A stretch of DNA of 64,000 nt from a virus. Where the stretch lies: IMG/VR virus record IMGVR_UViG_2643221865_000002; one strand, 5' to 3'. Of this stretch, positions 12,020 to 61,090 are shown in pieces. Every line of letters begins with the position of its first letter. Within the stretch, counting starts at the first letter, position 1. Made by a program: the position numbers and the translations under genes. The notes under the pieces were generated by a model, which saw nothing but the letters and a program-made list of their open reading frames with translations, made no database searches and was not told where the DNA came from.

Positions 12020-12023
12020 GAAG

Positions 12024-12040: not shown

Positions 12041-12055
12041 ATGAGGATTCGTCTG

Positions 12056-12250: not shown

Positions 12251-12351
12251 GGGTGGTCAGGTTCCTTCCGGGCGGTCCCCGGGCGGGGCGGTAAGCCTCC
12301 GCCTCGGGTCAGCAGGAACTATCGGCTGTCGCGGCCGGGGTGTCAGCGGAA

Positions 12352-17153: not shown

Positions 17154-17190
17154 TGTTGTACAGGACGTACACGACGATTAGGATCGAGTC

Positions 17191-23728: not shown

Positions 23729-23764
23729 CTTGTGGCCTTTCAAACTTCTTCGGTTCTCCGTGAA

Positions 23765-25422: not shown

Positions 25423-25430
25423 GCCGGAAA

Positions 25431-25447
25431 GCCATGTGGCGGAATGG
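25431..25447 (-). promoter_or_regulatory. conserved motif copy (class 2, N10 before ATG of LRV gene)
   Basis: In the divergent region with the HAD gene. Confidence 0.5.
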
Positions 25448-25458
25448 TGCACGGCCCT

Positions 25459-25475
25459 CCCCGCCACATGTCTCC
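25459..25475 (+). promoter_or_regulatory. conserved motif copy in plus orientation (CCCGCCACATGTCTCC, N10 before ATG 25481)
   Basis: Its orientation follows the plus-strand HAD gene. Confidence 0.5.
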
Positions 25476-25480
25476 CGGCC

Positions 25481-42301: not shown

Positions 42302-43744
42302 CTACTCGGCCGTGTTGCCGACCTTCACGTCGATGGACGCGGGAAGCTCCACCTTCGGGAGGGTGACGGTGGCGGCTGCGGAGTGACCGGCAGCCTTGCC
42401 GGCTGCGGTTCCGCCGATGACGGAGCCGAGCAGGTCCTTCAGGCCGATGCCCATGGTGGAGGACAGCATCGAGTCGACCTCGGTCATGCCGGACACGACG
42501 TTCTTCGCCAGCTGACCGGCGCCGTCGGTGGAGATGACGGTGAGGTTGTCGATGTTGGACATCGGAGCGGCGAGCTCACGGGCGATCAGCGGGAGCGCCT
42601 CGATGACCTTCAGCTGGAGCAGCGCCTCGGACTGCTGGGCGACAGCCTCAGCTGCAGCCTTCGTCGACTCGGCCTCAGCCTGACCCTTCGCGTAGATGGC
42701 CTTCGCCTCAGCCTCACCCTCAGCCTCAAGGGCTGCAGCGGCAGCCATGCGGGAGTCGCGCTCAGCGTGGGCGGCGATGAGGTTCTCGTCAGCCTTCGCC
42801 TGGGCGATCTTCGTCACACGGTACGCCTCAGCGTCAGCGACGGCGCGGACCTCGGACTCCAGCTCAGCGGCACGCAGCGAAGCGCGCTTTTGGGCGGTGA
42901 TCTCCTGCTGGGCGACGACGGCCTGCTGCGACTGCGCCTCGGCGAGCGGGCGAGCGGCTGCAGCCTCAGCGGCAGCCTTGTCGGTTGCCTTCTGCAGGTC
43001 AGCCTTGCGGAGAGCGAGGGCGTTCTCAGCCTCGGCGATGGACTGCTCAGCGGAGACGGCAGCCTCGCGGGCCTCCTTCTTCGCGATCGACTCGGCGATC
43101 TCGGCGGTCTTGCGGACCTTCGCCTGCTCGGCGCGGCCGAGGTCCTCGATGTAGCCGTTGTTGTCGCTGATGCCCTTGATCTCGAACGAGTCGACGTCCA
43201 GGCCCTGGTTCTCCAGCGACTGGCGGGCGATGTCGAGCACCGCAGCGGACAGCTCGTCACGCTTCGTGATGATGGTGAGGACGTCGGTGGCGCCGACGGA
43301 CGAGCGAAGCGAACCGGACAGCACCTCCAGGGCGAACCCGTCGATGTTCTTGTCCTGGCCGAGGAAGCGCTGCGCGGCGGCGCGGATCGCGGTCTCGGTG
43401 GATCCGACCTTGACGATGGCGACAGCGTCGACGTTCATCGTGATGCCGTTGTTCGTCTGAGCTACCGCCTGGATGTCGATCGCGCGGGAGCGGAGGGAGA
43501 TCTTGTGCGCCTTCTGGAAGAACGGCATGATCCAGACGCCCTGGCCGTGGACGACACGCTGGCCGGACTGCTCCGCCTCGATGCCGTTGACGAGCTTGCG
43601 CTTGGAGCGCTTGCCGGTGACGACGATCGCCTCGTCGGGCGAGACGTTGCGGTACAGGACCTTGGCGTAGATGAAGATGATGACGCCGATGACGACAAGG
43701 GCGAAGATGATGCCGAAAGCGGGGCCGAACAGGAAGTCGAGCAA
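42302..43744 (-). CDS. flotillin-like SPFH/band-7 protein
   Basis: N-terminal TM, SPFH domain and a long Ala/Glu-rich coiled coil. TTG start with RBS AAAGGAGAA. Confidence 0.75.
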   Translation of the reverse strand: MLDFLFGPAFGIIFALVVIGVIIFIYAKVLYRNVSPDEAIVVTGKRSKRKLVNGIEAEQSGQRVVHGQGVWIMPFFQKAHKISLRSRAIDIQAVAQTNNGITMNVDAVAIVKVGSTETAIRAAAQRFLGQDKNIDGFALEVLSGSLRSSVGATDVLTIITKRDELSAAVLDIARQSLENQGLDVDSFEIKGISDNNGYIEDLGRAEQAKVRKTAEIAESIAKKEAREAAVSAEQSIAEAENALALRKADLQKATDKAAAEAAAARPLAEAQSQQAVVAQQEITAQKRASLRAAELESEVRAVADAEAYRVTKIAQAKADENLIAAHAERDSRMAAAAALEAEGEAEAKAIYAKGQAEAESTKAAAEAVAQQSEALLQLKVIEALPLIARELAAPMSNIDNLTVISTDGAGQLAKNVVSGMTEVDSMLSSTMGIGLKDLLGSVIGGTAAGKAAGHSAAATVTLPKVELPASIDVKVGNTAE

Positions 43745-46402: not shown

Positions 46403-46807
46403 TCAGTCTTCAGGTGGGGTGTGCAGGTCGATCAGGTGCCGGCGGACATGCAGGTCCGGTTCGGTAAGGATCTCCGCCCGGATGTCCCGTTTCGCGACAG
46501 ACACGGTGACATCTTCGTCGAGGACGAACGAGGTGCCGTCGATGACGACCTGCTTCATCCCGAACACATCGCGGACGGATTCGAGGACGCCGCCGGTCGG
46601 TGGAGCGGACTTGAAGTGGATGGTGACGTCATCACCGACGTTGGCGCTGTCGAGCTCGGCAGCGGCCATGAACTCGGCGGTGCCGAACACCGCTTCGTGG
46701 GTCAGGAACGCATCCGAGGCCGGCTGCAGCTTCGTCGGAAAGTGCCCTGTCCTCTTCTCGTAGGTGTGCCCGGAGGAGGTGACGGATACCGGCTTCGTGT
46801 AGTTCAT
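46403..46807 (-). CDS. hypothetical protein co-transcribed with macrodomain gene
   Basis: Internal ATG (MNYTKPVSV...). The ORF-track N-terminal 107 aa are Arg/Pro junk. It lies 20 nt downstream of the macro gene stop. Confidence 0.5.
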   Translation of the reverse strand: MNYTKPVSVTSSGHTYEKRTGHFPTKLQPASDAFLTHEAVFGTAEFMAAAELDSANVGDDVTIHFKSAPPTGGVLESVRDVFGMKQVVIDGTSFVLDEDVTVSVAKRDIRAEILTEPDLHVRRHLIDLHTPPED

Positions 46808-46827
46808 GCCGTCGTAGGTGTGCGGGG

Positions 46828-47280
46828 CTATCCCTCGTAGGTCCACAGTTCCAGGTCGCAGCGGTACTCCGCAGCCACCTTCTCCAGCACCGGGAGGGCG
46901 TCCTCCCAGACGAGGCCGCCGATACCGCAGCCGATCTGCGGCAGGGCGATGCGGGTGATGCCGTTCTGGTCGGCGTGCTGCAGTGCGGCGCGTGTGCCGG
47001 TCTCCAGCCAGTCGAGGGAGGCGTTCGGGCCTGTCTGGTCCTGGGAGGCGATGTTGTACACCGCGGGGAGCTCCTCGGTTGCCGGCCAGAAGAACATCCC
47101 ACCGGGGATGAGGGCGCCGGAGCGGCACACCTTCGCGTACGCGTCGAACATGCCGGCGAACCGGAGACGGAACACGTTCGCGATGCCGGCGTGCATGGCG
47201 CCGACAACGTTCACCCCCTGCCCGAGTGCGGGTGCGTCAGAGGTGAAAAGGTCGCCGGACTTGTGGGTCACTGTGGTCAT
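46828..47280 (-). CDS. macrodomain protein (ADP-ribose binding/hydrolase-like)
   Basis: GQGVNVVGAMHAGIA and IALPQIGCGIGGLVWEDAL resemble the macro motifs (VNAAN..GGGV and IAFP.ISTG.YG). The ATG is 8 nt after a motif copy. Confidence 0.55.
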   Translation of the reverse strand: MTTVTHKSGDLFTSDAPALGQGVNVVGAMHAGIANVFRLRFAGMFDAYAKVCRSGALIPGGMFFWPATEELPAVYNIASQDQTGPNASLDWLETGTRAALQHADQNGITRIALPQIGCGIGGLVWEDALPVLEKVAAEYRCDLELWTYEG

Positions 47281-47284
47281 GACA

Positions 47285-47299
47285 CCTACATGTGCGGAC
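47285..47299 (-). promoter_or_regulatory. conserved motif copy, N8 before macro gene ATG
   Basis: Sequence match. Confidence 0.55.
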
Positions 47300-47361
47300 A
47301 ACCTCGGATCCGGCCGGTCGACATCGATACGAGGTTCGCCATCCTGGAACCGAGGAACCGT

Positions 47362-48000
47362 TTAGAGGTTCGCTCTGTCAGGCCAAGTCGTACGTCTGTC
47401 GCGCAGGAATGCGGTGAGAGCAGCGGAGGTGGCACGCCCGTCAGCAGGTCGAGTCAGCCACCTCGTGTCGTACCGCCTCTCCCACTCTTCGGCTTCCAGG
47501 CGTCGAGGGATCTGCACGGACTTCCAGTACCCGCGGTTGTCTCGAGCCCATCCTGTTCGGTCGAACCTGGACCAGTCGGAGGTCCATCGGTTGAAGTCGG
47601 AGAACTCGAGTGGATTTCCCTTCCGAACGACAGCCACCGAGTCGTCACCGGTGGCGATGAGCTGCCCGTCGACGGTCAGCAGCAATCCACCGCCGCGGTA
47701 ATAGAACAGCGGGAAGGGTTCATCTTTCGCTGTCCACCAAGTTCGGTATCCCTCGCTGATTGATACGGAGATCACCCAGAACGGGTACGTCACGTTCCAG
47801 GTTGGCAGCTGCGAGTACGTGGGGACACCGTCCTCATGAAGCAGGCGGGCCACCTTGTGTGCGTACCTGTCCAACCTGTGCTGCCAGTCCTCGACCGGTT
47901 GAACACGTGCGGGCGGAACGTAGAGGAGATCAGGTGCTGGTGACCGCGGGCTTGCAGATTTTGAGGTTCGTGCTCCCAACAAGCGTGAGAAGAAGCCCAT
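47362..48000 (-). CDS. hypothetical protein
   Basis: 212 aa of clean coding, Trp-rich. Confidence 0.55.
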   Translation of the reverse strand: MGFFSRLLGARTSKSASPRSPAPDLLYVPPARVQPVEDWQHRLDRYAHKVARLLHEDGVPTYSQLPTWNVTYPFWVISVSISEGYRTWWTAKDEPFPLFYYRGGGLLLTVDGQLIATGDDSVAVVRKGNPLEFSDFNRWTSDWSRFDRTGWARDNRGYWKSVQIPRRLEAEEWERRYDTRWLTRPADGRATSAALTAFLRDRRTTWPDRANL

Positions 48001-48012
48001 CGAAGGCGTTCC

Positions 48013-48132
48013 TCAGCTGATCTTGATGCCGCAGACGGGACATTTCTGGAAGCTGCTCGGCGATGCGATTTCAGTGCCGCATCCCCGGCAGACGTAAGCA
48101 GCTCGGTGGGGTGTTTGCATCAGACCACTCAT
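48013..48132 (-). CDS. small zinc-ribbon protein (about 39 aa)
   Basis: YVCRGCGTEIASPSSFQKCPVCG with RBS GGGAG. The upstream ORF-track part is Arg/Cys junk. Confidence 0.35.
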   Translation of the reverse strand: MSGLMQTPHRAAYVCRGCGTEIASPSSFQKCPVCGIKIS

Positions 48133-48247
48133 AGCTTTTGCTCCCATCTGGGAGGGCGCAGCGCGCCCCCTGATGGTGGAGACAGTACCGCAATGGCGGC
48201 ATCCGCGGCCGACCAAAGTTCTGCCCCGATGCCACCGCCGGCGACGG

Positions 48248-49066
48248 TCAGCGGATCTTGTCGACGAACGCGATGAGCAGTCGCCGCCACAACGGGAGCG
48301 GTTCCGGCTTCCGGGCGCCGGAACGTGCTCCCCCGATTGAGTATCCCCGTCGCGCTGCACCTCCTGGTATCAGTTGCAGTTTCGGGAAGATCTGCGCCGC
48401 GTGCTTCCCCGGGTACTTCATGGTCAGCTGCTCGTATTCGGCACGGGATGTCGCAACCCCGCCGATGAAGTCCGCTGCTCGCTTCGCCGTGTGCGCGTCA
48501 TGGATTTCGTCGACGATGATGAACCCGAGCTCTGCGGCTTTGCGTGCCTCGTCGCCGTCGATCAGAACACCGTGGTACCGGTTGGGGCGGTCGGGATGCC
48601 ACCGGTCTACGATCGCGGCCACCTGATCCTTGTAAGTCTGGCCTTCCTCGCCTTTCATGGATGCCGGCTTCTGGAGAGCAGCGACGTCGCTGGCGATCCG
48701 CGCGTTCACCCGGTCGAAGTACGCGGCCTCCCAGGAACGCCCCTGCCGGGTCCGGGCTTCGAGGCGATGGAAGACGCCGGTCGGTTCGCCGTTCTGAGGG
48801 GCATCCGGTGTAGGTTCCGGCTGGACAGGGATCGGGGTGGTCGCGGGCGCCTCCGTTGCAGGCTGGACAGGCTCAGACATGGGCGCCTCAGCCGCAGGCT
48901 GCACGACGACCGGAGCGGTCGGTGTCGTGTCCACGGTCAGCTGCGGGAGCCCGGCATCCGGGTTCAGTACCTGGCAGTTTTCGCCGTCCCAGTGGAATCG
49001 CTCCACCGTGCATGCTGAAGGGTTCGGGCAGATGACTGCCTTCGACCTGTACGACGTGACCTGCAT
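48248..49066 (-). CDS. hypothetical protein with N-terminal Cys cluster and Pro/Thr-rich linker
   Basis: 272 aa of clean coding. Confidence 0.55.
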   Translation of the reverse strand: MQVTSYRSKAVICPNPSACTVERFHWDGENCQVLNPDAGLPQLTVDTTPTAPVVVQPAAEAPMSEPVQPATEAPATTPIPVQPEPTPDAPQNGEPTGVFHRLEARTRQGRSWEAAYFDRVNARIASDVAALQKPASMKGEEGQTYKDQVAAIVDRWHPDRPNRYHGVLIDGDEARKAAELGFIIVDEIHDAHTAKRAADFIGGVATSRAEYEQLTMKYPGKHAAQIFPKLQLIPGGAARRGYSIGGARSGARKPEPLPLWRRLLIAFVDKIR

Positions 49067-49222
49067 GCGGGTGCTCCTCTCAGCGCCGCGAACCGCGGAC
49101 AGAGCGTAGGTGTGCGGCAGAGCCTCCGTTCACCTCGCTGTCCCTGGCGTCCCCATCCAACGAGAAACCCCGTCAACCGGTGTGGTTGGCGGGGCTCCTA
49201 TGGGTGCTGTCAGGTGTGCGGT

Positions 49223-51424
49223 TTACTCCGCTGCCACCTTGCGGCGGCGGACCATGAGGGCTGCGCCGCCGAGGAGCATCAGAGCGGCAACACCGAGGAA
49301 CGGTGCGCCCTCGAAGCCGAGGCCGGGGATGACATCGGTGCTGTCACCGGCTGCGGCGACTGTGATCTCGGAGATGAGGTACTCGACACCGTCCTCGTCC
49401 ACGAAGTACAGGTGGTGCGTACCAGCGGGGGTGTTGAGGGGAATCGTCACACTGGCCTCGACCTTGCCGTCGGAGTCGGCGGTGAACGAACCTAGGGTGA
49501 CCGGGTTGGACCTGAGGACGACGGTGACATCCGAATCGGGCGCGAAGCCGCTTCCGCTGACGGTGATCGTCGCGCCGGCGTTTGTCGTCCCCTCTTCCAT
49601 CCCTCCGGGCGGGTTGACGGACACTGGCGGCCTCACAGCGACCCCAAACCGCTTCGCCATGGAGCCCTCATCGTTGAACGCGGTGACTGTGAAGTCGTAC
49701 AGTCCGTACTTGGTGGGCGTGCCGGACAGTACACCGGACTTGCTGAGGGTGATACCGGCGGGCAGGTCGCCGGAGCTGACCTCCCACTGGACGTCCTTGT
49801 CAGAAGTCAGCTGCTTCGAGTAGGGGACACCCTGCTGCATCTTGCCGAGATCCCTAGTGGTAGTGGTGATCACCGGGTTGCTCTTGCCGCCGTCGTGGTG
49901 ACGGGTGACTGTTCCGCGGTAGACCTGCTCGTCGGTGTCGTCGGTCTTCTCCTGGCTGCCGATGACAGCGAAGTCGTAGTATCCGCCGTACGCCTCGTCA
50001 CCGTACTCAACGGTGCCGGACAGGGTTGCCGTTTCACGGTTGAAGGTCAGACCTGCGGGCAGGGTGCCGTCCGTCTGCCAGAAGTCCACGTTGGTGCCGG
50101 TGAACGTGTGGTTGATCTTCTGTCCGGCGGTCAGGTTGCCGAGAGCGTAGCCGTCGACGACGGGCTTGCCCTTCTTGACGTTGATGGAGAAACCGTTGAA
50201 CACGCGGGTCTCACCGGCGGCCGGGTACCGCGTGTTGGACGCGATGACGTTGAAGCTGACGTTCCCGACCTTCGTCGGGGTGCCAGTGATCATGCCGACG
50301 CCGTGCTTGTACTTGAAGGTCAGACCGGCGGGAAGGGTGCCTTCCAGGGTGAGCGTCTCCTCGTAGTTCGCGACGATCGCGGCCGAGTACTCCTCGCCGA
50401 CGCGGGCGGTACCAGTGAACTCGGTCTGCTCGCGCGGGAAGTTCGGCAGGCCCTGCAGGGCAGTGCCGTAGAGAGTCTTCTCGTACTGCTGACCGCCGAC
50501 CGTTGCGTTCAGGGTGATGCCCCAACCGCCGTAGGTCGTGAACAGACCGTCGAGGTAGAACTTGCCGCCCTGCTTGACGATGGACAGGTCGTAAGTGTCG
50601 GAATCGCTGCCGAACGTGACGTTGGTGGCTCCGGGAACGTTGATCAGTTCATGGGCCTGCGCGCCCTGCTCGAAGGTGAACGTCTCGCTCATCCACGGGT
50701 CTTCCGGCTGCGCCTCAGCGATGTGGATGGTGAACGTGTGGGGGGTTCGGAGAGTCCAATCCGGTCCGACCGCCACCAGGGTGAACGTGTAGTCGCCCGC
50801 CTTGGTTGGGGTGCCGAAGATGGCTTTCCGTTCAACGTCGAGGTTGAGTCCGGGCGGGAAGTTGAAGCTACCGTCGTTCTCTTCGACCGACATGGAGCCG
50901 TTCCAGTTCGTCGCTTCGAGCTGGAAGTAGTACGGGGAGCCGACCGTTCCGGACGGTTCTGTGAGGGAGAGCCACACCGGGTGGTAGTCGGGAGCCTCGA
51001 CCCTGGTGACGGTGCCGGTGAACGTCTGGTCGGACGTCCCCTCAGCGCCGTCGGAGGCGGTGACGGTGAACGCGTACGCGCCGGGGACGTCGGCGACGGT
51101 GCCGGTGAGGTGGCCGGTGCTGTCGACGTTCAGGCCGAGGTCTGCGACGCTGGCGTCCGCGGCGGCGTAGGAGACGGCGCCGGCCGCCATCAGGTAAGAG
51201 TCGACGGTGTCGCCGACAGTCAGGTCGCCGACGGCGTTGGGCTGGGACATCCACGTGATGCCGGTGCCGCTACCGGGGCCGCCGGGGAGGCCACCGGGGC
51301 CGCCGGGGAGGCCACCGGGGCCGGAGGCCATTGCGGGAGTGGCCGCGAAGATCGTGGTCGCAGCGACGGCTGCTGCGGCGAGGGCGGCGCCGAAACGGCG
51401 ACCGCGGGTCAGAGTGCTACTCAA
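49223..51424 (-). CDS. cell-surface protein with putative Ig (He_PIG-like) repeats, Tat-like signal and C-terminal TM anchor
   Basis: TTG start after RBS GGAAGGA. TRGRRFGAAL is a twin-arginine-like signal. Repeats GTPTK(A/V)G.Y.F.(V/L). The C-terminus LGVAALMLLGGAALMVRRRK is a TM anchor. Confidence 0.55.
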   Translation of the reverse strand: MSSTLTRGRRFGAALAAAAVAATTIFAATPAMASGPGGLPGGPGGLPGGPGSGTGITWMSQPNAVGDLTVGDTVDSYLMAAGAVSYAAADASVADLGLNVDSTGHLTGTVADVPGAYAFTVTASDGAEGTSDQTFTGTVTRVEAPDYHPVWLSLTEPSGTVGSPYYFQLEATNWNGSMSVEENDGSFNFPPGLNLDVERKAIFGTPTKAGDYTFTLVAVGPDWTLRTPHTFTIHIAEAQPEDPWMSETFTFEQGAQAHELINVPGATNVTFGSDSDTYDLSIVKQGGKFYLDGLFTTYGGWGITLNATVGGQQYEKTLYGTALQGLPNFPREQTEFTGTARVGEEYSAAIVANYEETLTLEGTLPAGLTFKYKHGVGMITGTPTKVGNVSFNVIASNTRYPAAGETRVFNGFSINVKKGKPVVDGYALGNLTAGQKINHTFTGTNVDFWQTDGTLPAGLTFNRETATLSGTVEYGDEAYGGYYDFAVIGSQEKTDDTDEQVYRGTVTRHHDGGKSNPVITTTTRDLGKMQQGVPYSKQLTSDKDVQWEVSSGDLPAGITLSKSGVLSGTPTKYGLYDFTVTAFNDEGSMAKRFGVAVRPPVSVNPPGGMEEGTTNAGATITVSGSGFAPDSDVTVVLRSNPVTLGSFTADSDGKVEASVTIPLNTPAGTHHLYFVDEDGVEYLISEITVAAAGDSTDVIPGLGFEGAPFLGVAALMLLGGAALMVRRRKVAAE

Positions 51425-51622
51425 AGGTGGATCCTTCCAGATAGGTGGGGTGGTGCATGTTGGGCGGTGATCCGCCGATGGCTTCATTCGCAGTGCAGCG
51501 CAGCACCAGGCAAATCCGGCGCTCCGACATTGCCACGTCGGTCATCTAGGTGTGCGGTGACGCACAGACCGTGCCGTGCACTGGGGGTGCGAGTGCGGCC
51601 TCCAGACGGTGGGCCTCGGCGA

Positions 51623-51940
51623 TCATCCGGAGATGGCGGCGCCGATCATCGACAGGATGTCGGAGGCGTCCAGAGCTCTGGCGTCCAGCAGCTCCTGCAG
51701 GATCTCCTCCGCCGTGCGCGGGTTGTCGTCCTCGTCTGCGTAGTTGGCTGCGACGACCGCTTCCGCGACAGCTGCAGGGTCGACCGGCGCCTTCTCGCCA
51801 CGAGCGACCTGGATGGCGTCGGCGACGTGATGCGTCAGGGTGTCCAGAAGGTCGTCGGTCTCATCGCTTGACGGGACATCGAACTGCTGGAACAGGGCGG
51901 TGAGCTGGTCGTTGATCGAGTAGAAATCGTTGGTCTTCAT
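51623..51940 (-). CDS. hypothetical acidic protein
   Basis: RBS AAGGAG. A motif copy lies at 51968-51982. Confidence 0.55.
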   Translation of the reverse strand: MKTNDFYSINDQLTALFQQFDVPSSDETDDLLDTLTHHVADAIQVARGEKAPVDPAAVAEAVVAANYADEDDNPRTAEEILQELLDARALDASDILSMIGAAISG

Positions 51941-51967
51941 GAGGGTGATGCTCCTTCTTTGTCACTA

Positions 51968-51982
51968 CCCACATGCGCGGAT
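51968..51982 (-). promoter_or_regulatory. conserved motif copy (CGCGCATGTGGGTAGTGAC)
   Basis: Upstream of 51623..51940. Confidence 0.5.
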
Positions 51983-52031
51983 TTCCGCGGTTCTGAAGCT
52001 GATCTGGCGACTGTTCAGAGTGCGCGATAGT

Positions 52032-52385
52032 TCACTGGCGGCCGCGGAGCGCGCTGTTCCTGTGCACGGAGAGGATGAGGTCGTGCAGGCGGATCTTGTC
52101 GACGGAAGCGAGCTCCTCGTCTGTGAGGCCGAGCTCGGCGGTGGTCAGGGTGACACCCCGATCGGCGAGAACGGTCAGCACCTTGCTGATGCCGGCGGCG
52201 AAGCCGCGCTCGTACTTGGACGTCAGCTCCTCGTCGAGGGCCCGGTCGATCTCGGCGACGGCATCGTTCAGTTCGGGCGCGGCGATGAGCTCACGGATGG
52301 GGCGGAGGACGTTGCCCAGCGCGAGACCGGACTTGTAACCGCCCTGATCGTCCAGAGTGGTGTCGGAGATAGTTGCGATGGCCAT
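52032..52385 (-). CDS. hypothetical protein
   Basis: Internal ATG with RBS GAAGGA. The ORF-track N-terminus is Arg-rich junk. Confidence 0.5.
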   Translation of the reverse strand: MAIATISDTTLDDQGGYKSGLALGNVLRPIRELIAAPELNDAVAEIDRALDEELTSKYERGFAAGISKVLTVLADRGVTLTTAELGLTDEELASVDKIRLHDLILSVHRNSALRGRQ

Positions 52386-52423
52386 GGTGTCCTTCGGTAG
52401 GTGGAGTGGATCGGAGTGGTGGG

Positions 52424-52897
52424 TCACTTGCGGGGGCCGATGCCGAAACGGCGTTGGGTCCACACTTCGACGTCGCACTGGTGCGATTGGGCGAGCGCGG
52501 CAACGACAGGTTCGACGTCGGCCCAGTCGAGCCCGCCGACACCGCATCCGATGCGTGGCATGGCGACGGTCTTGAAGTGGATCTCGTCGGCGTGGTCCAA
52601 AGCTTTCCGGAGCGACTCCTCCAGCCATTCGAGGCGGGCGTTCGCGCCGCGGCGGTCCTGGGAGGCGAGGTTGAACACGGCGGTGCGGTTCTCGATCGGA
52701 GGCCAGTAGAAGAACTGCCCCGGCTTGAACGTCTGGTTGGCGCAGATGCGGAGGTACATGTCGTGCATCATCGGGAACCGGTCACGGAACGTCGGGGCGA
52801 TGCCGGACCACATCTGACCGTCCACGTTGACCCCTTGCATCAGGGCAGGGGCAGTCGAGGTGAACAGGTCACCGGTCTTCAGGATGAGGGCGCCCAT
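52424..52897 (-). CDS. macrodomain protein (paralog of 46828..47280)
   Basis: GDLFTSTAPALMQGVNVDGQMWSGIA and VAMPRIGCGVGGLDWADVEPV. RBS GAAAGGA. A motif copy lies at 52926-52940. Confidence 0.55.
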   Translation of the reverse strand: MGALILKTGDLFTSTAPALMQGVNVDGQMWSGIAPTFRDRFPMMHDMYLRICANQTFKPGQFFYWPPIENRTAVFNLASQDRRGANARLEWLEESLRKALDHADEIHFKTVAMPRIGCGVGGLDWADVEPVVAALAQSHQCDVEVWTQRRFGIGPRK

Positions 52898-52925
52898 CGA
52901 CAGTCCTTTCTCGAGGTGCGCCTCC

Positions 52926-52940
52926 ACCATGTGCGGAGCA
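52926..52940 (-). promoter_or_regulatory. conserved motif copy
   Basis: Upstream of the second macro gene. Confidence 0.5.
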
Positions 52941-53025
52941 GGAGGAAAACACCTGCCGGAGGTCGAACCGCGGCATCCGGGCGCCCCGGGCCGAGCGATT
53001 TCGCTGCATCGTCGGCGGCGCATGG

Positions 53026-53527
53026 CACGATGGCCGGCATGGGATTCCTCGACAAGCTCCGCAGCAAGAAGAACGAACCGACGGTGGTCGCTACCGTCAC
53101 GATCAACCAGTCCGACCTGCGGGCGGCTGGAACCTCCGTGGAGGCGAAGCTCGTCGACTATGAAGCACTGCAGAAAGCGGAGGACCAGGCGTCGAAGGTC
53201 CGCGGAAAGCACTACACCGAATGGGGCGATGACCTCGATCGGCTTCGGAAGGACGGACCTGAAGACGAGTACCTGGCGTTGGTTCTCGACTGCGTCGACG
53301 GCGCCGAACGCGCAGCGAAGGTGAACGGACGCGAACCGGCTCCCGCCTACACGGAACGGGCCGCAGTGGTCTACCGACGTCGGAAGGACTACGCCGCAGA
53401 GGTGGCTGTGCTCCAGCGCTGGGAGGATGTCTGCCCTCCGGAGCGACGAGGTCCCGGCGCGACACAGCCGAAGCTGCTGGTGAGGAAGGCGAAAGCGTTG
53501 GAGCTGCTGGCCTCAACCGGCAGCTGA
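53026..53527 (+). CDS. hypothetical protein
   Basis: The C-terminal 166 aa of ORF 52373..53527 are coding; the upstream part is antisense to the macro gene. Confidence 0.5.
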
Positions 53528-53546
53528 TCCGCCAACCTGATTCGGG

Positions 53547-54114
53547 TCAGGCGGCCTTTCGCTGCTCCGGGAACTCGTGCAGGTACCCGCGGGTTTCCGC
53601 CCGGCGGAGGACAGTGGAGTGGTGCACGTCGATGGTGCGGGCGTACTCGGTGACACCCATCGCCCAGACGCCGGCGATGACGTCGGCTTTGTCGGGGTCA
53701 GGTCGGTCATCAGTGCGGCCGGCGGTGTGCAGGATGCAGGTCAGGTGCAGGGCGCTGCGGAGCTTCGTGCCGCACCAGCAGGCGTACTGCTTCGCAGTCC
53801 TCGACTTCGGGAGCGGATCCACACCACGGCGAGTCAGCTCCTTACGGCAGGCGTTGCCCGAGACACCGCAGACACGGGACAGCTCCTCCCAGGAGTCGTA
53901 CTCGACGATGTCGAGCATCTCCGCGGTGGACGGGTAGTTCGCCTTCTCGCGGCGGCCTGCGGTCTCGTATTCGGTGATGTCCCGGCGGGCGAGCTCCTTG
54001 CGGACACTGGTCGCGGAGACGCCGACACGGCGGCCCATCTCAGCGACTCCGTGCTCGGCGATGATCGCGAGCATGATCTTGGTGTCCGGGTAGGCGGTTT
54101 TCTTCTGCGGCATG
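53547..54114 (-). CDS. DNA-binding protein with two HTH-like repeats (transposase/sigma region-4-like)
   Basis: LAIIAEHGVAEMGRRVGVSATSVRKELARR and MLDIVEYDSWEELSRVCGVSGNACRKELTRR. RBS GAAGGAG 8 nt before the ATG. Confidence 0.5.
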
Positions 54115-54138
54115 ATGCTGCTCCTTCTTCTCGGAGCA

Positions 54139-54152
54139 TTCATGCGCGGAGC
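54139..54152 (-). promoter_or_regulatory. conserved motif copy
   Basis: 27 nt upstream of the HTH gene ATG. Confidence 0.5.
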
Positions 54153-54228
54153 TGGCGATTAATGCTGGAGCGTGGGAATCCGCTGGGTGTACCTTGTGGA
54201 CACAACGCGATGAAGCGGAGACCCGACC

Positions 54229-54690
54229 ATGAGCGCTTTCGGTATTGCTACAGGCAGCCCGACCTCCCCCGGCGGTCCCATCGAAATCAACGCCAGCGCC
54301 AAGGACAAGACGATCAACGCGCTCGGCGCGCTCGTGAAATGGATCCCCGCCGATGTGGTCGCCGGCTACGGCATCGCCACCACCCTGAAAGTCGCGAACA
54401 ACAAGGACGCAGACCCGGACTGGGTGGCGTGGTGGATTTTCCTGATCATCGCGCCGATCTTCGTGGCGGTCGTCGCATGGGCAACGAAAGAGACCAAAGA
54501 CTTGGCGTGGAAGGTGATCCTCGTCGTCCCAGCATTCATCCTGTGGTCATCCACGATCCCGGCATCCGTGTGGAACACGTTCTCCTGGTTCAAGGATGCG
54601 ACAGCCCTCACCTACGGGGTGCTGTTCATCATCGCCGTGTTGTTCACGATCGTCGCACAAAGACTGGCACCGCCATCGGACGGTGCATAA
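54229..54690 (+). CDS. membrane protein (3-4 TM)
   Basis: RBS GGAG. 153 aa. Confidence 0.6.
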   Translation: MSAFGIATGSPTSPGGPIEINASAKDKTINALGALVKWIPADVVAGYGIATTLKVANNKDADPDWVAWWIFLIIAPIFVAVVAWATKETKDLAWKVILVVPAFILWSSTIPASVWNTFSWFKDATALTYGVLFIIAVLFTIVAQRLAPPSDGA

Positions 54691-54693
54691 CCC

Positions 54694-55248
54694 CTACCTC
54701 TGGGCGGCAGCCTTCCGCGCCTGCCTGGCAAGCCTGTCCGCTCGTTCGTTCAGCGGATCACCTGAGTGACCCTTCACCCGGACGAACACCACCGTGCGTT
54801 CCGACATGAACGCGTCGATGTACGCCATCTCGGCATCCGCGCCGCGCTTCACCCAGGCGTTACGGCGTTCCCCGGACTGGTACATGCGGATCGCTTGGAG
54901 CGCCTCCTTGCAGTCGCAGAACACCGTGATCCGCTCGTACAGGGCATGCGCTTCCAACGCTTTCGCGATCGCCCGGAGCTCCGCACCGAACGACGACTCG
55001 GACGCCGGTCCGGAACCCTGCCCGCCGATGCTGGACACCCACCCGTAGCCACCGCGCCCGTACCCGCCTTGATCGGGCTCCCCGGAACCGTCAGTGGCGA
55101 CGGTGATGGACAGGCGAGGGATCGGGCGGCCAGCGATCGGCTGGTCAGGGCCGACAGCAGGTTCAGGGCGGGCCCAACGGGTCCGCGGAACGTAGGTGGA
55201 CGCGATCGACGGCAACGGGGCGGCTGGTGGGCGCGGGATTGTCACCAC
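54694..55248 (-). CDS. rnhA: ribonuclease HI with Pro-rich N-terminal extension
   Basis: TDGSG, ELRAI, FCDCKEA and KGHSGDPLNERADRLA motifs. Confidence 0.8.
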   Translation of the reverse strand: MVTIPRPPAAPLPSIASTYVPRTRWARPEPAVGPDQPIAGRPIPRLSITVATDGSGEPDQGGYGRGGYGWVSSIGGQGSGPASESSFGAELRAIAKALEAHALYERITVFCDCKEALQAIRMYQSGERRNAWVKRGADAEMAYIDAFMSERTVVFVRVKGHSGDPLNERADRLARQARKAAAQR

Positions 55249-55478
55249 GGCAGGGGCGGCACGCCGACGAAGATGACCGTGTAGCCGTCCTCGGCGAGTG
55301 ACTCAGCGACGTACTCGGGGCTCACCTCGCGGCAGTCACCGCAGTCGTTCTCGAACCAGCGGCCGTCCTGCTTCACCAACGTGGTCAGATCGGGGTCGGT
55401 GAGGTGGCCGACGAAGGCGTTCTCGTAGAGGTCGCCGAGGTAGGCGACGATCGCTTCGTGGCTGGTGAGGGTGGGCAT
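55242..55478 (-). CDS. small hypothetical protein
   Basis: 78 aa with RBS GAAGGA 7 nt before an ATG that coincides with a CCGCACATG copy. It overlaps rnhA by 7 nt. Confidence 0.55.
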   Translation of the reverse strand: MPTLTSHEAIVAYLGDLYENAFVGHLTDPDLTTLVKQDGRWFENDCGDCREVSPEYVAESLAEDGYTVIFVGVPPLPW

Positions 55479-55516
55479 GTGCGGTCCTTCAGGTTGGCTT
55501 ATCCGTCACCTTCATG

Positions 55517-55533
55517 CGCGGAGTTGCCCGGAA
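55517..55533 (-). promoter_or_regulatory. conserved motif copy (TCCGCGCATGAAGGTGAC)
   Basis: Upstream of 55242..55478. A second CCGCACATG overlaps that start codon. Confidence 0.5.
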
Positions 55534-55543
55534 TCACCCAACC

Positions 55544-56515
55544 TCAGCTGTTCCCCTTGATGACGTTGCACCACCAGTGGGCTGCCTGCAGGTTCTCTGC
55601 GGTGTGGCCTCCGTCGACGGTGACGGCTTGGATGTGGTCGAGGGTGACGGACCACGGGTCCGGATGCTGGAGTGTCTTGTCGATCTCGGTGCCGCAGATC
55701 CCGCACATCCAGTCGCATGCTTCGTACACGGCTTGCGGGTCGACGTAGTCGGCTTGCGGGTCGATGTGCCCAGCGGCGCGGGCTCTGGCCAGGTAGGCGC
55801 TGCGTGCGCGGGCGGCCCTGGATAGGGAGTGGCGGGCTGGCGTCCACAGGGACTGCGGCTGCACTGGGGAGAACACGTACGCTTCCCAGCGGTAGTCGTT
55901 GCCGTGCTCGTCGACGTCGGAGATGAGCTCCCGGGCGAACCACGTCTCCGGGTCGTCGAGGAATGCGGTGCGGTGCGGCAGCTCGAACAGGTCGGCGCCG
56001 ACTCCGATCACCGGGAGGGTCAGCATGCTGGGCCGGTAGTCAGGGCCGACGGCGACGAGGCCCCACATGTCGGTGCCGATGAGGTCTGCCACCATGACGG
56101 TGTCCGGGGAGGCCATGCCGGTCAGGTACCCGGCGGCGGCTGCGTGCCCGTGATGCTCCGGTTCCAGCAGCGCGTATGAGGTGATGAGCCCGTGCCGTTC
56201 GACGGCGTCGCCGGGTTTCGGCCACCGGCCATGCTCGTACGGGAACTCAGCATCCATGTTCGTGCGGAAGAACTGCGGTCCACGGGCCGACTCTTCAGCG
56301 CGCGCTTGAACCTTCTCCGGCCGAGGTGCAGGAATCACGGTCCCTGGCCTGTCGAGGGTTCTGCTGATGCTGCGGCGCAGGTTCGCGTTGCACCGTGGGG
56401 AGCAGACATGCCGGTCCCGCTGCTTCCAGTGCGCCTTGGCGGGGATCGGGTTGCCGCACTTCACGCACGGTTCGCCGCCTTTCGCCCGGGTCGGCTGCTT
56501 CAGCATGTCGTCCAT
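55544..56515 (-). CDS. HNH endonuclease domain protein with N-terminal zinc ribbon
   Basis: The C-terminus CGICGTEID...LDHIQAVTVDGGHTAENLQAAHWWCNVIKGN is an HNH motif. Confidence 0.7.
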   Translation of the reverse strand: MDDMLKQPTRAKGGEPCVKCGNPIPAKAHWKQRDRHVCSPRCNANLRRSISRTLDRPGTVIPAPRPEKVQARAEESARGPQFFRTNMDAEFPYEHGRWPKPGDAVERHGLITSYALLEPEHHGHAAAAGYLTGMASPDTVMVADLIGTDMWGLVAVGPDYRPSMLTLPVIGVGADLFELPHRTAFLDDPETWFARELISDVDEHGNDYRWEAYVFSPVQPQSLWTPARHSLSRAARARSAYLARARAAGHIDPQADYVDPQAVYEACDWMCGICGTEIDKTLQHPDPWSVTLDHIQAVTVDGGHTAENLQAAHWWCNVIKGNS

Positions 56516-56582
56516 GGCGTCGAAGTAGTCGTCAGCGTCGATCGTGCATCTCCTCAGTCGGTCGGGATATTCTCTCGCGGTT

Positions 56583-57911
56583 CTAGGCGTCGAACTCGCA
56601 GAGGTAGCGGACGCGGACCTGGTTCGTATCGAAAACGATGGCTTCGTGGTTCCGCACTCCAGCGGTCCCCGGCTTCACGTTGATGGAGTTCCACGGCTTA
56701 CCGAACTTGTTGACCGTGGAGTGGGCTTTCGGCCAGTCGGAGTAGTGAGAGGGACGGTACTCGGATCCCATCGCTACGTCGTTGAGGAGCATGAAGCAGT
56801 TGTTGTCTCGGCCGCCGGAGGTCCAGTAGCCATTCGAGTAGTTGAGGCTCTTCGTAGAGTCGAGCGAAAGATACAGACCGTCGCCGAACATGCGCCCGGC
56901 GATCTGGATACCTGAACCTGACCGCGGCGGGACGAACAGCCCCTTCTGGAGGATGGAGAGCAAGTTTGCGGCGCGGGTCCCGTGCCACATCTGCTGCTCG
57001 TTTCGGATCTCCGCAGCGATCCTCTTGTAGGTGGCGGCTCCGACCGGATCGACAAGCTCGAAGACATGCTTCAGGTTCAACTTGGCTGACGTGTGCATGC
57101 CGTTCTTCGTCTTCGCATACCGCTCTTCGATCCGCTTGAAGACGGCCCCGCCGTCGGCGACGGCGCGAACCTTGTACTTGAAGAGGTTGTCGTATTCGTT
57201 GCCGTCGACGTCGTCGATCGCTGCGGTGGTGGCAGCGGCGAGCTGGGTGTTGAAGAACTGGACGGAGTCGCGGAGGGAGTCGAGCAGCTCGTGCTGCTTC
57301 TGGAAGGTGTTGTCGCGGTTGAAGAATGTGGATGCCCATCCGGCGTTGCGGCCGATGTTCTGGGGGACGAGGGTGAGGTAGTCCTCCAGCAGCCGGGTGC
57401 TGGAGGTGTCTTTGACGCCGCCGGCCTGTTCGATCTGCGTGAGGAGGCCGCGGGCTTCGCTGATGGAGTAGTTGGTGATCAGGCCGAGCGGAGTCTTCAC
57501 CTGGCCGCTGGTGTCGACGGTGATCTTTCCGCCGGAGAGGGTGGCGATGTCGTGGGCGTTCACACGACAAATACGCTCGATCAGGTCAGCGACTCGGGTG
57601 TCGGTGCGGGCCTTCCCCTTCGTCAGGGCAGTCTTCGCGATCGTGGTGATCTGCGTGTTCGCGGCCACTGACGTGGTCGCTGTGGGCGGGGCTGCGATCG
57701 CGACCTTCTTGTAGCCCTTCCGCTCCTTCGCGTAGACGGCGTTGTCGAAACCGAGCCGTCCGGTCTTCTCAATAGACATCTGACCGTCGGCGCCGACACG
57801 ACCCCAACGCTTCGTCACGGTGATCCCATCCGAGGACAATTTCACCTCGTAGAACTTGTTGTTGTTCGCTTGGGAATCCACGTAAATCAGCATCGTTGTC
57901 GTCTCATTCAT
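56583..57911 (-). CDS. poly(ADP-ribose) polymerase homolog: WGR domain + helical domain + PARP catalytic domain
   Basis: WGR: KFYEVKLSSDGITVTKRWGRVG. Catalytic: MWHGTRAANLLSILQKGLFVPP, GRMFGDGLYLSLDSTKSLNYS, HEAIVFDTNQVRVRYLCEF (the H-G-S/T...Y...E signature of PARP1). The ATG is 8 nt after a motif copy. Confidence 0.8.
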   Translation of the reverse strand: MNETTTMLIYVDSQANNNKFYEVKLSSDGITVTKRWGRVGADGQMSIEKTGRLGFDNAVYAKERKGYKKVAIAAPPTATTSVAANTQITTIAKTALTKGKARTDTRVADLIERICRVNAHDIATLSGGKITVDTSGQVKTPLGLITNYSISEARGLLTQIEQAGGVKDTSSTRLLEDYLTLVPQNIGRNAGWASTFFNRDNTFQKQHELLDSLRDSVQFFNTQLAAATTAAIDDVDGNEYDNLFKYKVRAVADGGAVFKRIEERYAKTKNGMHTSAKLNLKHVFELVDPVGAATYKRIAAEIRNEQQMWHGTRAANLLSILQKGLFVPPRSGSGIQIAGRMFGDGLYLSLDSTKSLNYSNGYWTSGGRDNNCFMLLNDVAMGSEYRPSHYSDWPKAHSTVNKFGKPWNSINVKPGTAGVRNHEAIVFDTNQVRVRYLCEFDA

Positions 57912-57913
57912 GT

Positions 57914-57930
57914 CACCTACATGTGCGGAC
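57914..57930 (-). promoter_or_regulatory. conserved motif copy, N8 before PARP ATG, preceded by CCGAAAAC
   Basis: Sequence match. Confidence 0.55.
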
Positions 57931-61006: not shown

Positions 61007-61023
61007 TGTGCGGTCCGCACATG
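61007..61023. promoter_or_regulatory. palindromic head-to-head motif pair TGTGCGG-T-CCGCACA, with the plus-orientation copy upstream of the collagen gene
   Basis: Seen directly. It sits in the divergent region between 60956(-) and 61091(+). Confidence 0.5.
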
Positions 61024-61090
61024 AAAGTAAGGAAGCAAGCCGCGACTGCGCGGACCCCCACCCCTCCCCCACTGAACGGACAGCACAGCT

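What the first reader, a model, noticed from the sequence alone, without database searches (positions are those of the whole stretch)
46403..57911. Eukaryotic-type PARP (WGR + catalytic) together with two macrodomain paralogs, an HNH nuclease and RNase HI: a possible ADP-ribosylation writer/eraser module on a mobile element
ORF 56583..57911 has an unmistakable WGR motif (KRWGRVG). It also has PARP catalytic signatures aligned to human PARP1 (WHGTR / GDGLYLS / NHEAIVFD, corresponding to H-G-S, Y and the catalytic E). Bacterial PARP homologs are rare and patchily distributed. Within 11 kb upstream (minus-strand sense) are two paralogous macrodomain proteins (46828..47280 and 52424..52897), the standard readers/erasers of ADP-ribose. 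Also present are an HNH endonuclease (55544..56515), RNase HI (54694..55248) and an HTH regulator. Each carries its own motif-promoter. This co-occurrence on an accessory element suggests a DNA-damage-sensing or anti-phage/anti-host ADP-ribosylation system rather than housekeeping genes. The unknown gene 46403..46807 directly downstream of the first macro gene could be a cognate partner (target, toxin or transferase).
Basis: partly seen in the sequence, partly recalled or inferred. Interest (0 to 1): 0.8.

Follow-up and report, generated by a model that had tools for sequence, protein, structure and literature searches.

The report
Bacterial PARP with macrodomain erasers
The window, from a giant accessory region of the leaf bacterium Leifsonia sp. 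Leaf264, carries a real three-domain PARP enzyme (already listed in a 2018 survey) and two macrodomain genes that probably undo its modification, whereas the neighbouring nucleases are not conserved partners and nothing marks it as an anti-phage system.

Summary
ORF 56583-57911(-) is WGR + PARP_reg + PARP catalytic by Pfam, with H310/Y347/E423 invariant in 43 homologues.

The source is Leifsonia sp. Leaf264, and this PARP is already named in García-Saura 2018. The family is not rare: at least 1,212 homologues, many on jumbo-phage contigs, megaplasmids and contigs of 0.6-1.1 Mb.

The writer/eraser idea survives its own refutation test. Among nine distinct actinobacterial loci with PARP at least 54% identical, seven have a macro gene within 10 kb. 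Five have one within 2 kb on the same strand, from two unrelated macro classes.

Other parts of the interpretation fail:
- HNH and RNase HI are not conserved neighbours.
- The "own promoter" motif is element-wide (24 copies), not specific to these genes.
- PADLOC has no PARP hit, and the macros match only the macro half of DarG.
- No DarT, PARG, ARH or NUDIX is in the window.
- The same macro branch is common in phages without PARP (0 of 80 loci).
- ORF 46403-46807 is a small SH3/Sm-like barrel, not an enzyme.

Verdict: a new member of a known kind, of moderate interest.

The parts
56583..57911 (-). PARP gene (442 aa from M1; 436 aa if it starts at M7, coordinate 57893). WGR domain about 57705-57896, helical PARP_reg about 57267-57599, catalytic ART domain about 56592-57140. 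Catalytic residues H310, Y347, E423.
   Evidence: Pfam. Invariant H-Y-E in 43 homologues. PDB phmmer hits to PARP1 and PARP2. phrog_23333, 9e-67. A 100%-identical 436-aa protein, P0001.
57916..57928 (-). Promoter-like motif CCGCACATGTAGG with a GAAAAC element 8 nt upstream. It ends 4 nt before the M1 ATG of the PARP.
55544..56515 (-). HNH nuclease (323 aa; HNH motif only at aa 271-322; the N-terminal 250 aa are unassigned). It lies 67 nt after the PARP with no motif in between, so it is probably co-transcribed. It is not a conserved PARP neighbour and may be an inserted free-standing endonuclease.
   Evidence: Pfam 4e-6. phrog_338 3e-19. No homologue at other PARP loci. The AF2 model failed.
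55242..55478 (-). 78-aa ORF with its own motif copy (55509-55521). It overlaps the start of the RNase HI gene by 7 nt.
   Evidence: gene call in L002.
54694..55248 (-). RNase HI (184 aa, domain at aa 47-178), followed by a terminator-like hairpin at 54667-54686.
   Evidence: Pfam 3.2e-16. phrog_531. Hairpin.
52424..52897 (-). Macrodomain paralog 2 (157 aa) of the TARG1/DarG-like branch, with the 'ASQD' motif (Gln at the catalytic-Lys position). Its own motif copy is at 52924-52936. It lies 3.7 kb downstream of the PARP.
   Evidence: Pfam. PADLOC DarG positions 4-143 of 329. Alignment. 100% identical to P0122, Leifsonia sp. Leaf264.
52032..52427 (-). 117-131 aa ORF of unknown function. Its start overlaps the end of macro2. 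It is unrelated to ORF 46403-46807.
46828..47280 (-). Macrodomain paralog 1 (150 aa), same Gln-type subfamily, 51% identical to paralog 2. Its own motif copy is at 47285-47297. It lies 9.3 kb downstream of the PARP.
   Evidence: Pfam. PDB DarG 5m3i 5.9e-16 and TARG1 3e-9..
46403..46807 (-). 134-aa protein. Residues 44-130 form an SH3/Sm-like beta-barrel plus two helices. Its own motif copy (46813-46825) sits in the 20-nt gap after macro1. Homologues lie 1.7-3 kb from PARP in Agromyces loci L004 and L005 and in L006.

Best explanation
The locus encodes a reversible ADP-ribosylation pair carried in a giant accessory region of Leifsonia sp. Leaf264.

Shown:
- The PARP has the minimal architecture of DNA-dependent PARPs (WGR, helical regulatory domain, ART domain with H-Y-E).
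- The two macrodomains belong to the TARG1/DarG-like branch. They keep both phosphate-binding loops but carry Gln at the catalytic-Lys position.
- PARP and macro genes are linked across the actinobacterial clade.

Inferred:
- As shown in vitro for the Herpetosiphon PARP, the WGR domain would bind DNA ends or nicks and relieve the helical domain's autoinhibition. The enzyme would then use NAD+ to build ADP-ribose chains on itself or on nearby proteins of the replicon.
- A macrodomain would then strip the protein-proximal ADP-ribose (or a whole chain) from acidic residues, as TARG1 and SCO6735 do, and so reset the signal.
- The likely role is DNA-break signalling or repair for the large replicon, not immunity.

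The genes are separate transcription units driven by the element-wide promoter-like motif. HNH, RNase HI and the other intervening genes are neighbours, not components.
For: PARP integrity:
- Pfam domains and invariant H-Y-E.
- Collinear alignment to PARP2 over aa 7-383.

Linkage:
- Nine loci with PARP 54-74% identical to the window and at most 74% to each other.
- Macro is 0.6 kb upstream in L003, 4 nt downstream in L130, overlapping in L139, 1.5 kb downstream in L137 and 0.36 kb downstream in L138. It sits at the 10-kb edge in L005.
- Two unrelated macro classes occupy this position: the Gln-type TARG1/DarG-like class and the MacroD-like class. This looks like non-orthologous replacement of one function.
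- The same Gln-type macro (41-43% identity) lies 4.7 kb from PARP on a 45%-GC giant contig.

Macro chemistry:
- Both loops are conserved, with Gln at TARG1 K84 / DarG K80 and Gly at D125.
- SCO6735 has Gln at the Lys84 position and Ala at Asp125, yet removes PARP-made Glu-linked ADP-ribose and is DNA-damage-inducible (PMC5087735).

DNA-metabolism context at related loci:
- Exo_endo_phos, RNase_T and RNase H in L003 and L137.
- Helicase, SSB, Rad52 and a 3'-5' exonuclease around the PARP of the Variovorax megaplasmid.

Biochemical precedent: HaPARP needs DNA and makes PAR, and CdPARP is active (PMC5966428, PMC8120803).
Against: - In the window the linkage is loose: 3.7 and 9.3 kb, with unrelated genes between, two of them on the other strand. 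Every gene has the same element-wide promoter-like motif.
- Across the whole family, only 9 of 96 dereplicated PARP locus groups have a macro within 10 kb, and 4 more have an ARH.
- The TARG1/DarG-like macro branch is abundant in phages with no PARP nearby: 0 of 80 IMG/VR loci, and large Microbacterium, Rhodococcus and Gordonia phages.
- The catalytic Lys of TARG1/DarG is missing, so hydrolase activity is an inference.
- No PARG was found in the 64 kb.
- No activity, target or expression data exist.
Confidence: 0.55

Rival explanations
1. Two independent takeover or counter-defence tools of a giant phage or plasmid, not a cognate pair. The PARP would modify host proteins (as T4 Alt, ModA and ModB do, but with chains). 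The stand-alone macros would erase host-imposed ADP-ribosylation such as DarT marks on DNA, or degrade ADP-ribose-derived immune signals.
For: - PARP homologues sit on jumbo phages (XacN1, Xoo-sp13, Stenotrophomonas and Klebsiella phages) and on IMG/VR contigs of 170-543 kb.
- Their commonest neighbours are phage nucleotide- and RNA-repair genes: Rnl1 in 16 groups, MazG 11, NUDIX 10, dNMP kinase 11.
- The macros score best against DarG (PADLOC 1e-28 and 1e-30; PDB 5m3i).
- They belong to phrog_335.
- The branch occurs in many large actinophages without PARP.
- A DarB-like antirestriction protein is in the same window.
- The same view of phage PARPs is proposed in PMC7824862.
Against: - DarG's catalytic Lys80 is Gln in both paralogs and in their whole subfamily.
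- Tight PARP-macro adjacency also occurs in ordinary chromosomal contexts, next to catalase, OsmC, MarR and transporters (L130, L139). Host takeover makes no sense there.
- No virion, terminase or conjugation gene was seen in the window.
Confidence: 0.22
2. An anti-phage abortive-infection system. The PARP would sense invading or broken DNA and deplete NAD+ or poison the cell, the macros would act as antidotes, and HNH would be a second effector.
For: - The locus lies in an accessory region, and an HNH nuclease is directly downstream of the PARP.
- Ter clusters lie next to PARP in L005 and L137.
- NAD+-consuming defence effectors are well established (PMC9503650).
Against: - PADLOC has no model hit for the PARP, HNH, RNase HI or ORF 46403-46807.
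- HNH is not conserved at any other PARP locus.
- The genes are separate transcription units sharing an element-wide motif.
- The family is itself frequent in phages.
Confidence: 0.08
3. Chance co-occurrence. Giant elements collect many NAD/ADP-ribose genes, so a PARP and macros within 11 kb need not interact.
For: - Macro domains are reported in 56% of jumbo phages and ARTs in over 40% (PMC9503650).
- Family-wide, only 9 of 96 PARP locus groups have a macro within 10 kb.
- Unrelated genes lie between them in the window.
Against: - Five of nine clade members have a macro within 2 kb on the same strand, from two macro classes, some overlapping the PARP stop codon.
- My estimate, not computed here: with a few macro genes per 4-Mb actinobacterial genome, the chance of one within 2 kb is well under 1% per locus.
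Confidence: 0.15

Closest known systems
[quoted passage not shown] 2018)
   Same: - WGR, PARP_reg and PARP_cat domains with H-Y-E.
- This exact protein is cited in that survey as the only actinobacterial member with all three Pfam domains.
   Different: - In the characterised species the eraser studied is a DUF2263-type PARG encoded elsewhere in the genome. Here no PARG is in the window, and the linked erasers are small macrodomains.
- The genomic context (giant accessory region, two macro paralogs) was not described in the papers read.
Jumbo-phage and megaplasmid PARPs (e.g. Xanthomonas phage XacN1 BBA65562; Variovorax, Pseudomonas and Vibrio 0.8-1.2 Mb plasmids)
   Same: Same length and architecture, 32-38% identity over the full length. 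They are carried on very large accessory replicons.
   Different: - Phage versions usually have a conserved unknown ~200-aa gene ('RWAEKSRVK' family) just downstream, together with Rnl1, NUDIX and MazG. None of these is in the window.
- Macro linkage is rare there.
Eukaryotic PARP2/PARP3 with TARG1 or MacroD erasers
   Same: - Collinear WGR-HD-ART alignment to PARP2.
- The eraser belongs to the same macro branch as TARG1.
   Different: - There is no N-terminal extension and no chromatin context.
- The macro lacks TARG1's Lys84 and Asp125.
DarTG toxin-antitoxin / defence system
   Same: The macro domains are most similar to the DarG macro domain.
   Different: - No DarT gene.
- No DarG C-terminal domain (the match covers profile positions 2-143 of 329).
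- The catalytic Lys80 is replaced by Gln.
Streptomyces coelicolor SCO6735 macrodomain
   Same: - Same broad TARG1/ALC1 branch (profile hit to 5e3b at 3e-13).
- Gln at the TARG1 Lys84 position.
- Actinobacterial, linked to DNA damage, and active on PARP-made Glu-ADP-ribose.
   Different: - Only distantly related: there was no single-sequence hit at E<0.01.
- SCO6735 has no known cognate transferase, whereas here a PARP is linked.

Membership tests
DNA-dependent PARP (PARP1-3-like ARTD) | WGR domain | tested here: met
   PF05406, 6e-12, aa 6-69. The KRWGRVG motif is present. G37, R38, V39 and G40 are invariant in 43 homologues.
DNA-dependent PARP (PARP1-3-like ARTD) | Helical regulatory (PARP_reg/HD) domain between WGR and ART | tested here: met
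   PF02877, 3.4e-6; 27.6 bits against a cut-off of 26.8, so marginal. PARP1 HD residues align.
DNA-dependent PARP (PARP1-3-like ARTD) | ART fold with the H-Y-E triad | tested here: met
   PF00644, 9.8e-26. H310, Y347 and E423 are invariant. WHGT, GDGLYLS and NHEAIVF align to PARP1.
DNA-dependent PARP (PARP1-3-like ARTD) | DNA-stimulated synthesis of poly(ADP-ribose) | not testable with these tools
   Known only for HaPARP and CdPARP in vitro (PMC5966428, PMC8120803).
TARG1/DarG-type macrodomain hydrolase | Macro fold with both phosphate-binding loops | tested here: met
   PF01661, 1e-12 and 5e-11. The G-x-G-I-A and I-G-C-G-x-G-G-L loops are conserved.
TARG1/DarG-type macrodomain hydrolase | Catalytic lysine (TARG1 K84 / DarG K80) | tested here: not met
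   The column is Gln in both paralogs and in 17 of 20 subfamily members aligned ('ASQD'). Among 83 viral relatives it is K in 55 and Q in 26.
DarTG system | Adjacent DarT (DUF4433) toxin gene | tested here: not met
   No DarT hit in the Pfam scans of about 74 called genes of the window. The PADLOC scan of the 10 submitted proteins also gave none.
DarTG system | DarG C-terminal DarT-binding domain | tested here: not met
   The proteins are 150 and 157 aa and match only positions 2-143 of the 329-position DarG model.
Catalogued anti-phage defence system (PADLOC 2.0) | Core proteins match a defence-system model | tested here: not met
   No hit for the PARP, HNH, RNase HI, ORF 46403-46807 or the HTH-like protein.
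Bacterial PAR cycle as in Herpetosiphon / C. difficile (PARP + DUF2263 PARG) | A PARG-type glycohydrolase is present | tested here: inconclusive
   No PARG domain is in the 64-kb window (Pfam). The rest of the genome could not be read.
SCO6735-like macrodomain subclass | Gln at the TARG1 Lys84 position, with close sequence relationship to SCO6735/BT1257 | tested here: inconclusive
   The Gln is present (PMC5087735). However, 5e3b and 2fg1 are found only by profile, at 3e-13, far behind DarG and TARG1.

The most novel reading that the evidence does not exclude
PARP plus a small macrodomain, with lineage-specific partners, is a recurrent DNA-break-signalling or genome-maintenance kit of very large accessory replicons across phyla. 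Such replicons include megaplasmids, jumbo phages and giant islands. The lineage-specific partners include the SH3-like p134 family in Microbacteriaceae, the 'RWAEKSRVK' 200-aa family in phages, and the 514-aa protein shared with a 45%-GC giant element. Bacterial PARPs would then be mainly a mobile-element function rather than a cellular one, which would explain why their physiological role has stayed unknown.
Probability: 0.2. Interest if true: 0.65.

Novelty: new member of a known kind. Interest (0 to 1): 0.38.

Why it matters
Two bacterial PARPs have been shown active in vitro, but no physiological role or target is known for any of them. Earlier surveys looked only at genome-level co-occurrence with erasers. 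They listed actinobacterial carriers as having none (PMC4245714).

Tight PARP-macro gene pairs in Actinobacteria would give a simple, genetically tractable writer/eraser pair to test. The strong association of the family with giant replicons suggests where to look for the function. For this particular window the gain is modest. The protein is already catalogued, the architecture is canonical, and the linkage here is looser than in its relatives.

Tried and rejected
Searches that led nowhere:
- Megablast of the 12-kb region against phages and plasmids gave no match.
- Exact look-up of the 442-aa PARP was not on record, because public gene calls start at M7.
- The single genome-contig scan, run with one protein, returned only two distant Chthonomonadaceae loci. 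An alignment query would have been better.
- Rfam found nothing in the window.
- A sigma-70 consensus scan found no promoter in the region, so the repeated motif is not a canonical -35/-10 pair.
- AF2 of the HNH protein without an alignment gave pLDDT 37 and is unusable.
- The word-indexed search for ORF 46403-46807 found only the protein itself. The exhaustive search found small homologues and weak repeat-like matches in giant surface proteins.
- The viral-contig scan for the 514-aa protein found nothing.

Ideas rejected:
- ORF 46403-46807 and the ORF after macro2 are a duplicated macro-partner cassette. They are unrelated.
- The MamF-like and DUF4379 genes that flank PARP in relatives are present in the window. 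They have no homologue there.
- The window carries a complete PAR cycle or NAD salvage. It has no PARG, ARH, NUDIX or Nampt (and the earlier Pfam calls).

Unresolved: I could not decide whether the element is a plasmid, a phage or a chromosomal island. The 701-kb NCBI contig was not retrievable.

Full report
**1. What is in the sequence**

The window is about 65% GC. From roughly 2.3 kb to 57.9 kb it is read almost entirely on the minus strand.

| ORF (minus strand) | Pfam result |
|---|---|
| 56583-57911 | WGR 6e-12; PARP_reg 3.4e-6 (just above its cut-off); PARP catalytic 9.8e-26 |
| 46828-47280 | Macro 1e-12 |
| 52424-52897 | Macro 5e-11 |
| 55544-56515 | HNH 4e-6, last 50 residues only |
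| 54694-55248 | RNase H 3e-16 |

In an alignment of 43 homologues, H310, G311, Y347 and E423 are invariant. phmmer against PDB sequences aligns the protein to human PARP1 (1.4e-21). It also aligns collinearly to PARP2 from the WGR domain through the catalytic domain. The two macro proteins are 51% identical.

Two details need correction. The 'HTH regulator' has only sub-threshold hits. Two gene calls, one independent and one by codon score, start the PARP at Met7.

**2. Where it comes from**

ORF 46403-46807 and macro2 are 100% identical to proteins of Leifsonia sp. Leaf264, an Arabidopsis leaf isolate of the Microbacteriaceae. They are recorded there on a 701,121-bp contig.

The only paper in the library that mentions Leaf264 is the 2018 survey of bacterial PARPs. 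It singles out this protein as the only actinobacterial PARP with all three Pfam domains (PMC5966428). The enzyme itself is already catalogued. Its genomic context is not discussed in the papers I read.

**3. What kind of DNA surrounds it**

About 74 genes can be called in the 64 kb, and most have no Pfam family. The recognisable ones are:
- a 1,665-aa DarB-like methyltransferase-helicase;
- a UvrD helicase and an RNase_T-type exonuclease;
- four DnaJ-domain proteins;
- RCC1, BNR/sortilin, LRV, He_PIG and collagen-repeat proteins;
- an SPFH/flotillin protein;
- a tRNA-Val.

A strand-specific motif, CCGCACATG(T/A)AGG, is usually preceded by a GAAAC-like element. It occurs 24 times in gene sense on the minus strand at up to two mismatches. 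That compares with 5 on the plus strand and about 1.7 in Markov controls. At least two of the plus-strand copies sit in front of plus-strand genes. It therefore looks like an element-wide promoter.

There is no nucleotide-level match to any phage or plasmid record. A 514-aa protein at 4032-5576 has collection relatives only on 0.55-0.6 Mb Curtobacterium plasmids and 0.42 Mb Pseudarthrobacter plasmids. The region around the Curtobacterium homologue is rich in RNA ligase, RtcB, DNA ligase, Thg1 and TerD genes.

I conclude that the window is part of a giant accessory replicon or island. I could not show whether it is a plasmid, a phage or integrated DNA, nor whether it is mobile.

**4. The PARP family at large**

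The family is much larger than the 72 sequences known in 2018:
- 1,212 proteins at E<=1e-10;
- 264 confirmed stretches in one capped metagenome scan;
- 41 IMG/VR loci, many on contigs of 170-543 kb;
- jumbo phages such as XacN1 and Xoo-sp13;
- plasmids of 0.3-1.2 Mb.

I dereplicated 129 loci into 96 groups at 85% PARP identity. I then searched the 10-kb flanks by clustering and iterative profiles. Numbers are locus groups out of 96:

| Neighbour family | Groups |
|---|---|
| Unknown ~200-aa 'RWAEKSRVK' family, usually just downstream | 21 |
| T4-type RNA ligase 1 (Rnl1) | 16 |
| MazG-like | 11 |
| dNMP kinase | 11 |
| NUDIX | 10 |
| Macro | 9 |
| ADP-ribosylating-toxin-like genes | 8 |
| RNase H | 5 |
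| ARH | 4 |
| Window-type HNH | the window's own group only |

None of the phage-type partners is in the window.

**5.

For the clade closest to the window I have nine loci. Their PARPs are 54-74% identical to the window's and at most 74% identical to each other, and all are 62-67% GC.

| Locus | Macro relative to PARP |
|---|---|
| Window | two copies, 3.7 and 9.3 kb downstream |
| L003 | 0.6 kb upstream |
| L138 | 0.36 kb downstream |
| L137 | 1.5 kb downstream |
| L130 | 4 nt downstream |
| L139 | overlapping the PARP stop |
| L005 | at the 10-kb edge |
| L004 | none seen (only 2.6 kb upstream held) |
| L006 | none |

Two macro classes are involved, and they do not detect each other by BLAST. 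The window, L003, L137 and L138 have the TARG1/DarG-like class. L130 and L139 have a MacroD-like class. L130 and L139 lie in ordinary chromosomal surroundings.

Two different erasers recruited to the same position is the strongest argument here for a functional writer/eraser pair. The same Gln-type macro also lies 4.7 kb from the PARP on a 45%-GC contig of a giant element. That element also carries a homologue of the window's 514-aa protein directly upstream of its PARP.

The reverse does not hold. None of 80 macro-centred IMG/VR loci has a PARP within 10 kb. Large Microbacterium, Rhodococcus, Gordonia and Arthrobacter phages carry this macro without any PARP. The macro is thus a general-purpose gene that PARPs tend to recruit, not a dedicated partner.

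**6. What the macros are**

Their best matches are the macro halves of DarG (PDB 5m3i at 6e-16; PADLOC DarG at 1e-28 and 1e-30, profile positions 2-143 of 329) and TARG1. Both ADP-ribose phosphate loops are conserved.

The catalytic lysine of TARG1 (K84) and DarG (K80) is Gln in a conserved 'ASQD' motif, and TARG1's Asp125 is Gly. SCO6735 of Streptomyces has Gln at the Lys84 position and Ala at Asp125. It still removes PARP-made glutamate-linked ADP-ribose and is induced by DNA damage (PMC5087735). However, it is only a distant relative.

There is no DarT, no DarG C-terminal domain, and no PARG, ARH or NUDIX anywhere in the window.

**7. The other genes**

- HNH follows the PARP after 67 nt with no motif copy, so it is probably co-transcribed. 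In relatives this position holds a DUF4379 repeat protein, with a MamF-like membrane protein upstream. Neither has a homologue in the window. A free-standing endonuclease insertion is a reasonable guess. Its single-sequence structure model failed.
- The 78-aa ORF and RNase HI form their own unit, ending at a terminator-like hairpin.
- ORF 46403-46807 has its own motif copy in the 20-nt gap after macro1.
  - Homologues lie 1.7-3 kb from the PARP in two Agromyces chromosomes and in L006. A binding or adaptor role connected to the PARP remains possible.

**8. Interpretation**

- Most likely (about 0.55): a DNA-activated PARP paired with macrodomain erasers, acting as a reversible ADP-ribosylation signal in DNA-break handling for a large replicon. 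The domain architecture, catalytic residues and gene linkage are shown. DNA activation, targets and macro activity are inferred from HaPARP/CdPARP and from TARG1/SCO6735.
- Main rival (about 0.22): the PARP and macros are independent takeover or counter-defence tools of a giant phage or plasmid.
- A dedicated anti-phage system (about 0.08) has no positive support.
- Pure coincidence (about 0.15) is hard to reconcile with the clade-level adjacency.

**9. Verdict**

The finding is a new member of a known kind: a catalogued bacterial PARP now seen with linked macro erasers on a giant accessory region. Interest is moderate. The more general leads are the clade-wide PARP-macro pairing and the family's concentration on giant replicons.

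Noticed in passing
window 3941-61015 (e.g. 57916-57928, 47285-47297, 10415-10427, 61015-61027 on +): Element-wide, strand-specific motif CCGCACATG(T/A)AGG with an upstream GAAAC-like element. There are 24 gene-sense copies on the minus strand against about 1.7 expected. The motif lies either 4-5 nt before the ATG or about 20 nt before a GAAGGAG ribosome-binding site. It does not fit a sigma-70 consensus, and what reads it is unknown.
   Followed up: partly
L016:5327-5953, L012:11314-11970 and 19 other locus groups: An unknown ~200-aa protein family (conserved 'RWAEKSRVK..RGFR', no Pfam hit) is the commonest PARP neighbour in phage and metagenome loci. It is usually immediately downstream on the same strand. 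It is absent from the window.
   Followed up: partly
window 4032-5576 (-); L062:8353-9849; L135:20001-21494: A 514-aa protein with no Pfam, PHROG or PADLOC hit. It is 42% identical to the gene directly upstream of the PARP on a 45%-GC giant contig. It is 44-49% identical to proteins of 0.55-0.6 Mb Curtobacterium plasmids. In the window, tRNA-Val lies just upstream of it.
   Followed up: partly
L003:9472-9945 and 11311-12060; L137:9432-9893 and 11304-12791; L138:3-431; L006:11326-11727: In the window's relatives the PARP is flanked by a MamF_MmsF-like ~150-aa membrane protein upstream and a DUF4379 zinc-ribbon repeat protein downstream. The window lacks both and has the HNH gene at the downstream position.
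   Followed up: yes
L005:907-5655; L137:1-3645; L135:40101-40658: TerD/TerC/TelA tellurite-resistance-type clusters lie within 10 kb of the PARP in an Agromyces chromosome and in a metagenome contig. A TerD gene is also on the Curtobacterium megaplasmid.
   Followed up: no
window 12352-17349 (-): A 1,665-aa methyltransferase plus helicase protein that matches the phage P1 DarB-like antirestriction family (phrog_10089, 3e-291).
   Followed up: no
window 32648-33745, 35684-36682, 36695-37819 (all -) and one more ORF among those scanned: Four DnaJ-domain proteins in 64 kb. A DnaJ-like gene is also near the PARP in the 45%-GC giant element (L131).
   Followed up: no
window 61091-63520 (+), 560-2572, 20570-23743, 24673-25587, 26141-27964, 49223-51487 (-): A run of large repeat proteins: collagen triple-helix (809 aa), two RCC1 proteins, BNR/sortilin (1,057 aa), LRV/HEAT, and He_PIG Ig-like (754 aa). 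This is unusual for a bacterial chromosome and reminiscent of giant phages or megaplasmids.
   Followed up: no
L131:13289-14368 and loci L055-L066, L118: ADPrib_exo_Tox-type ADP-ribosyltransferase genes, often several per locus, cluster near the PARP in low-GC giant contigs (8 locus groups, 27 hits). SPFH/flotillin genes are near the PARP in 5 groups, and the window's own SPFH gene is at 42302-43744.
   Followed up: no
L001:21202-22966: On a 302-kb Tsukamurella plasmid the PARP sits beside an FtsK/SpoIIIE gene. An ADP-ribosylglycohydrolase and an isochorismatase-family (possibly nicotinamidase-like) gene lie 5-7 kb away. This may be an alternative eraser and NAD-salvage pairing.
   Followed up: no
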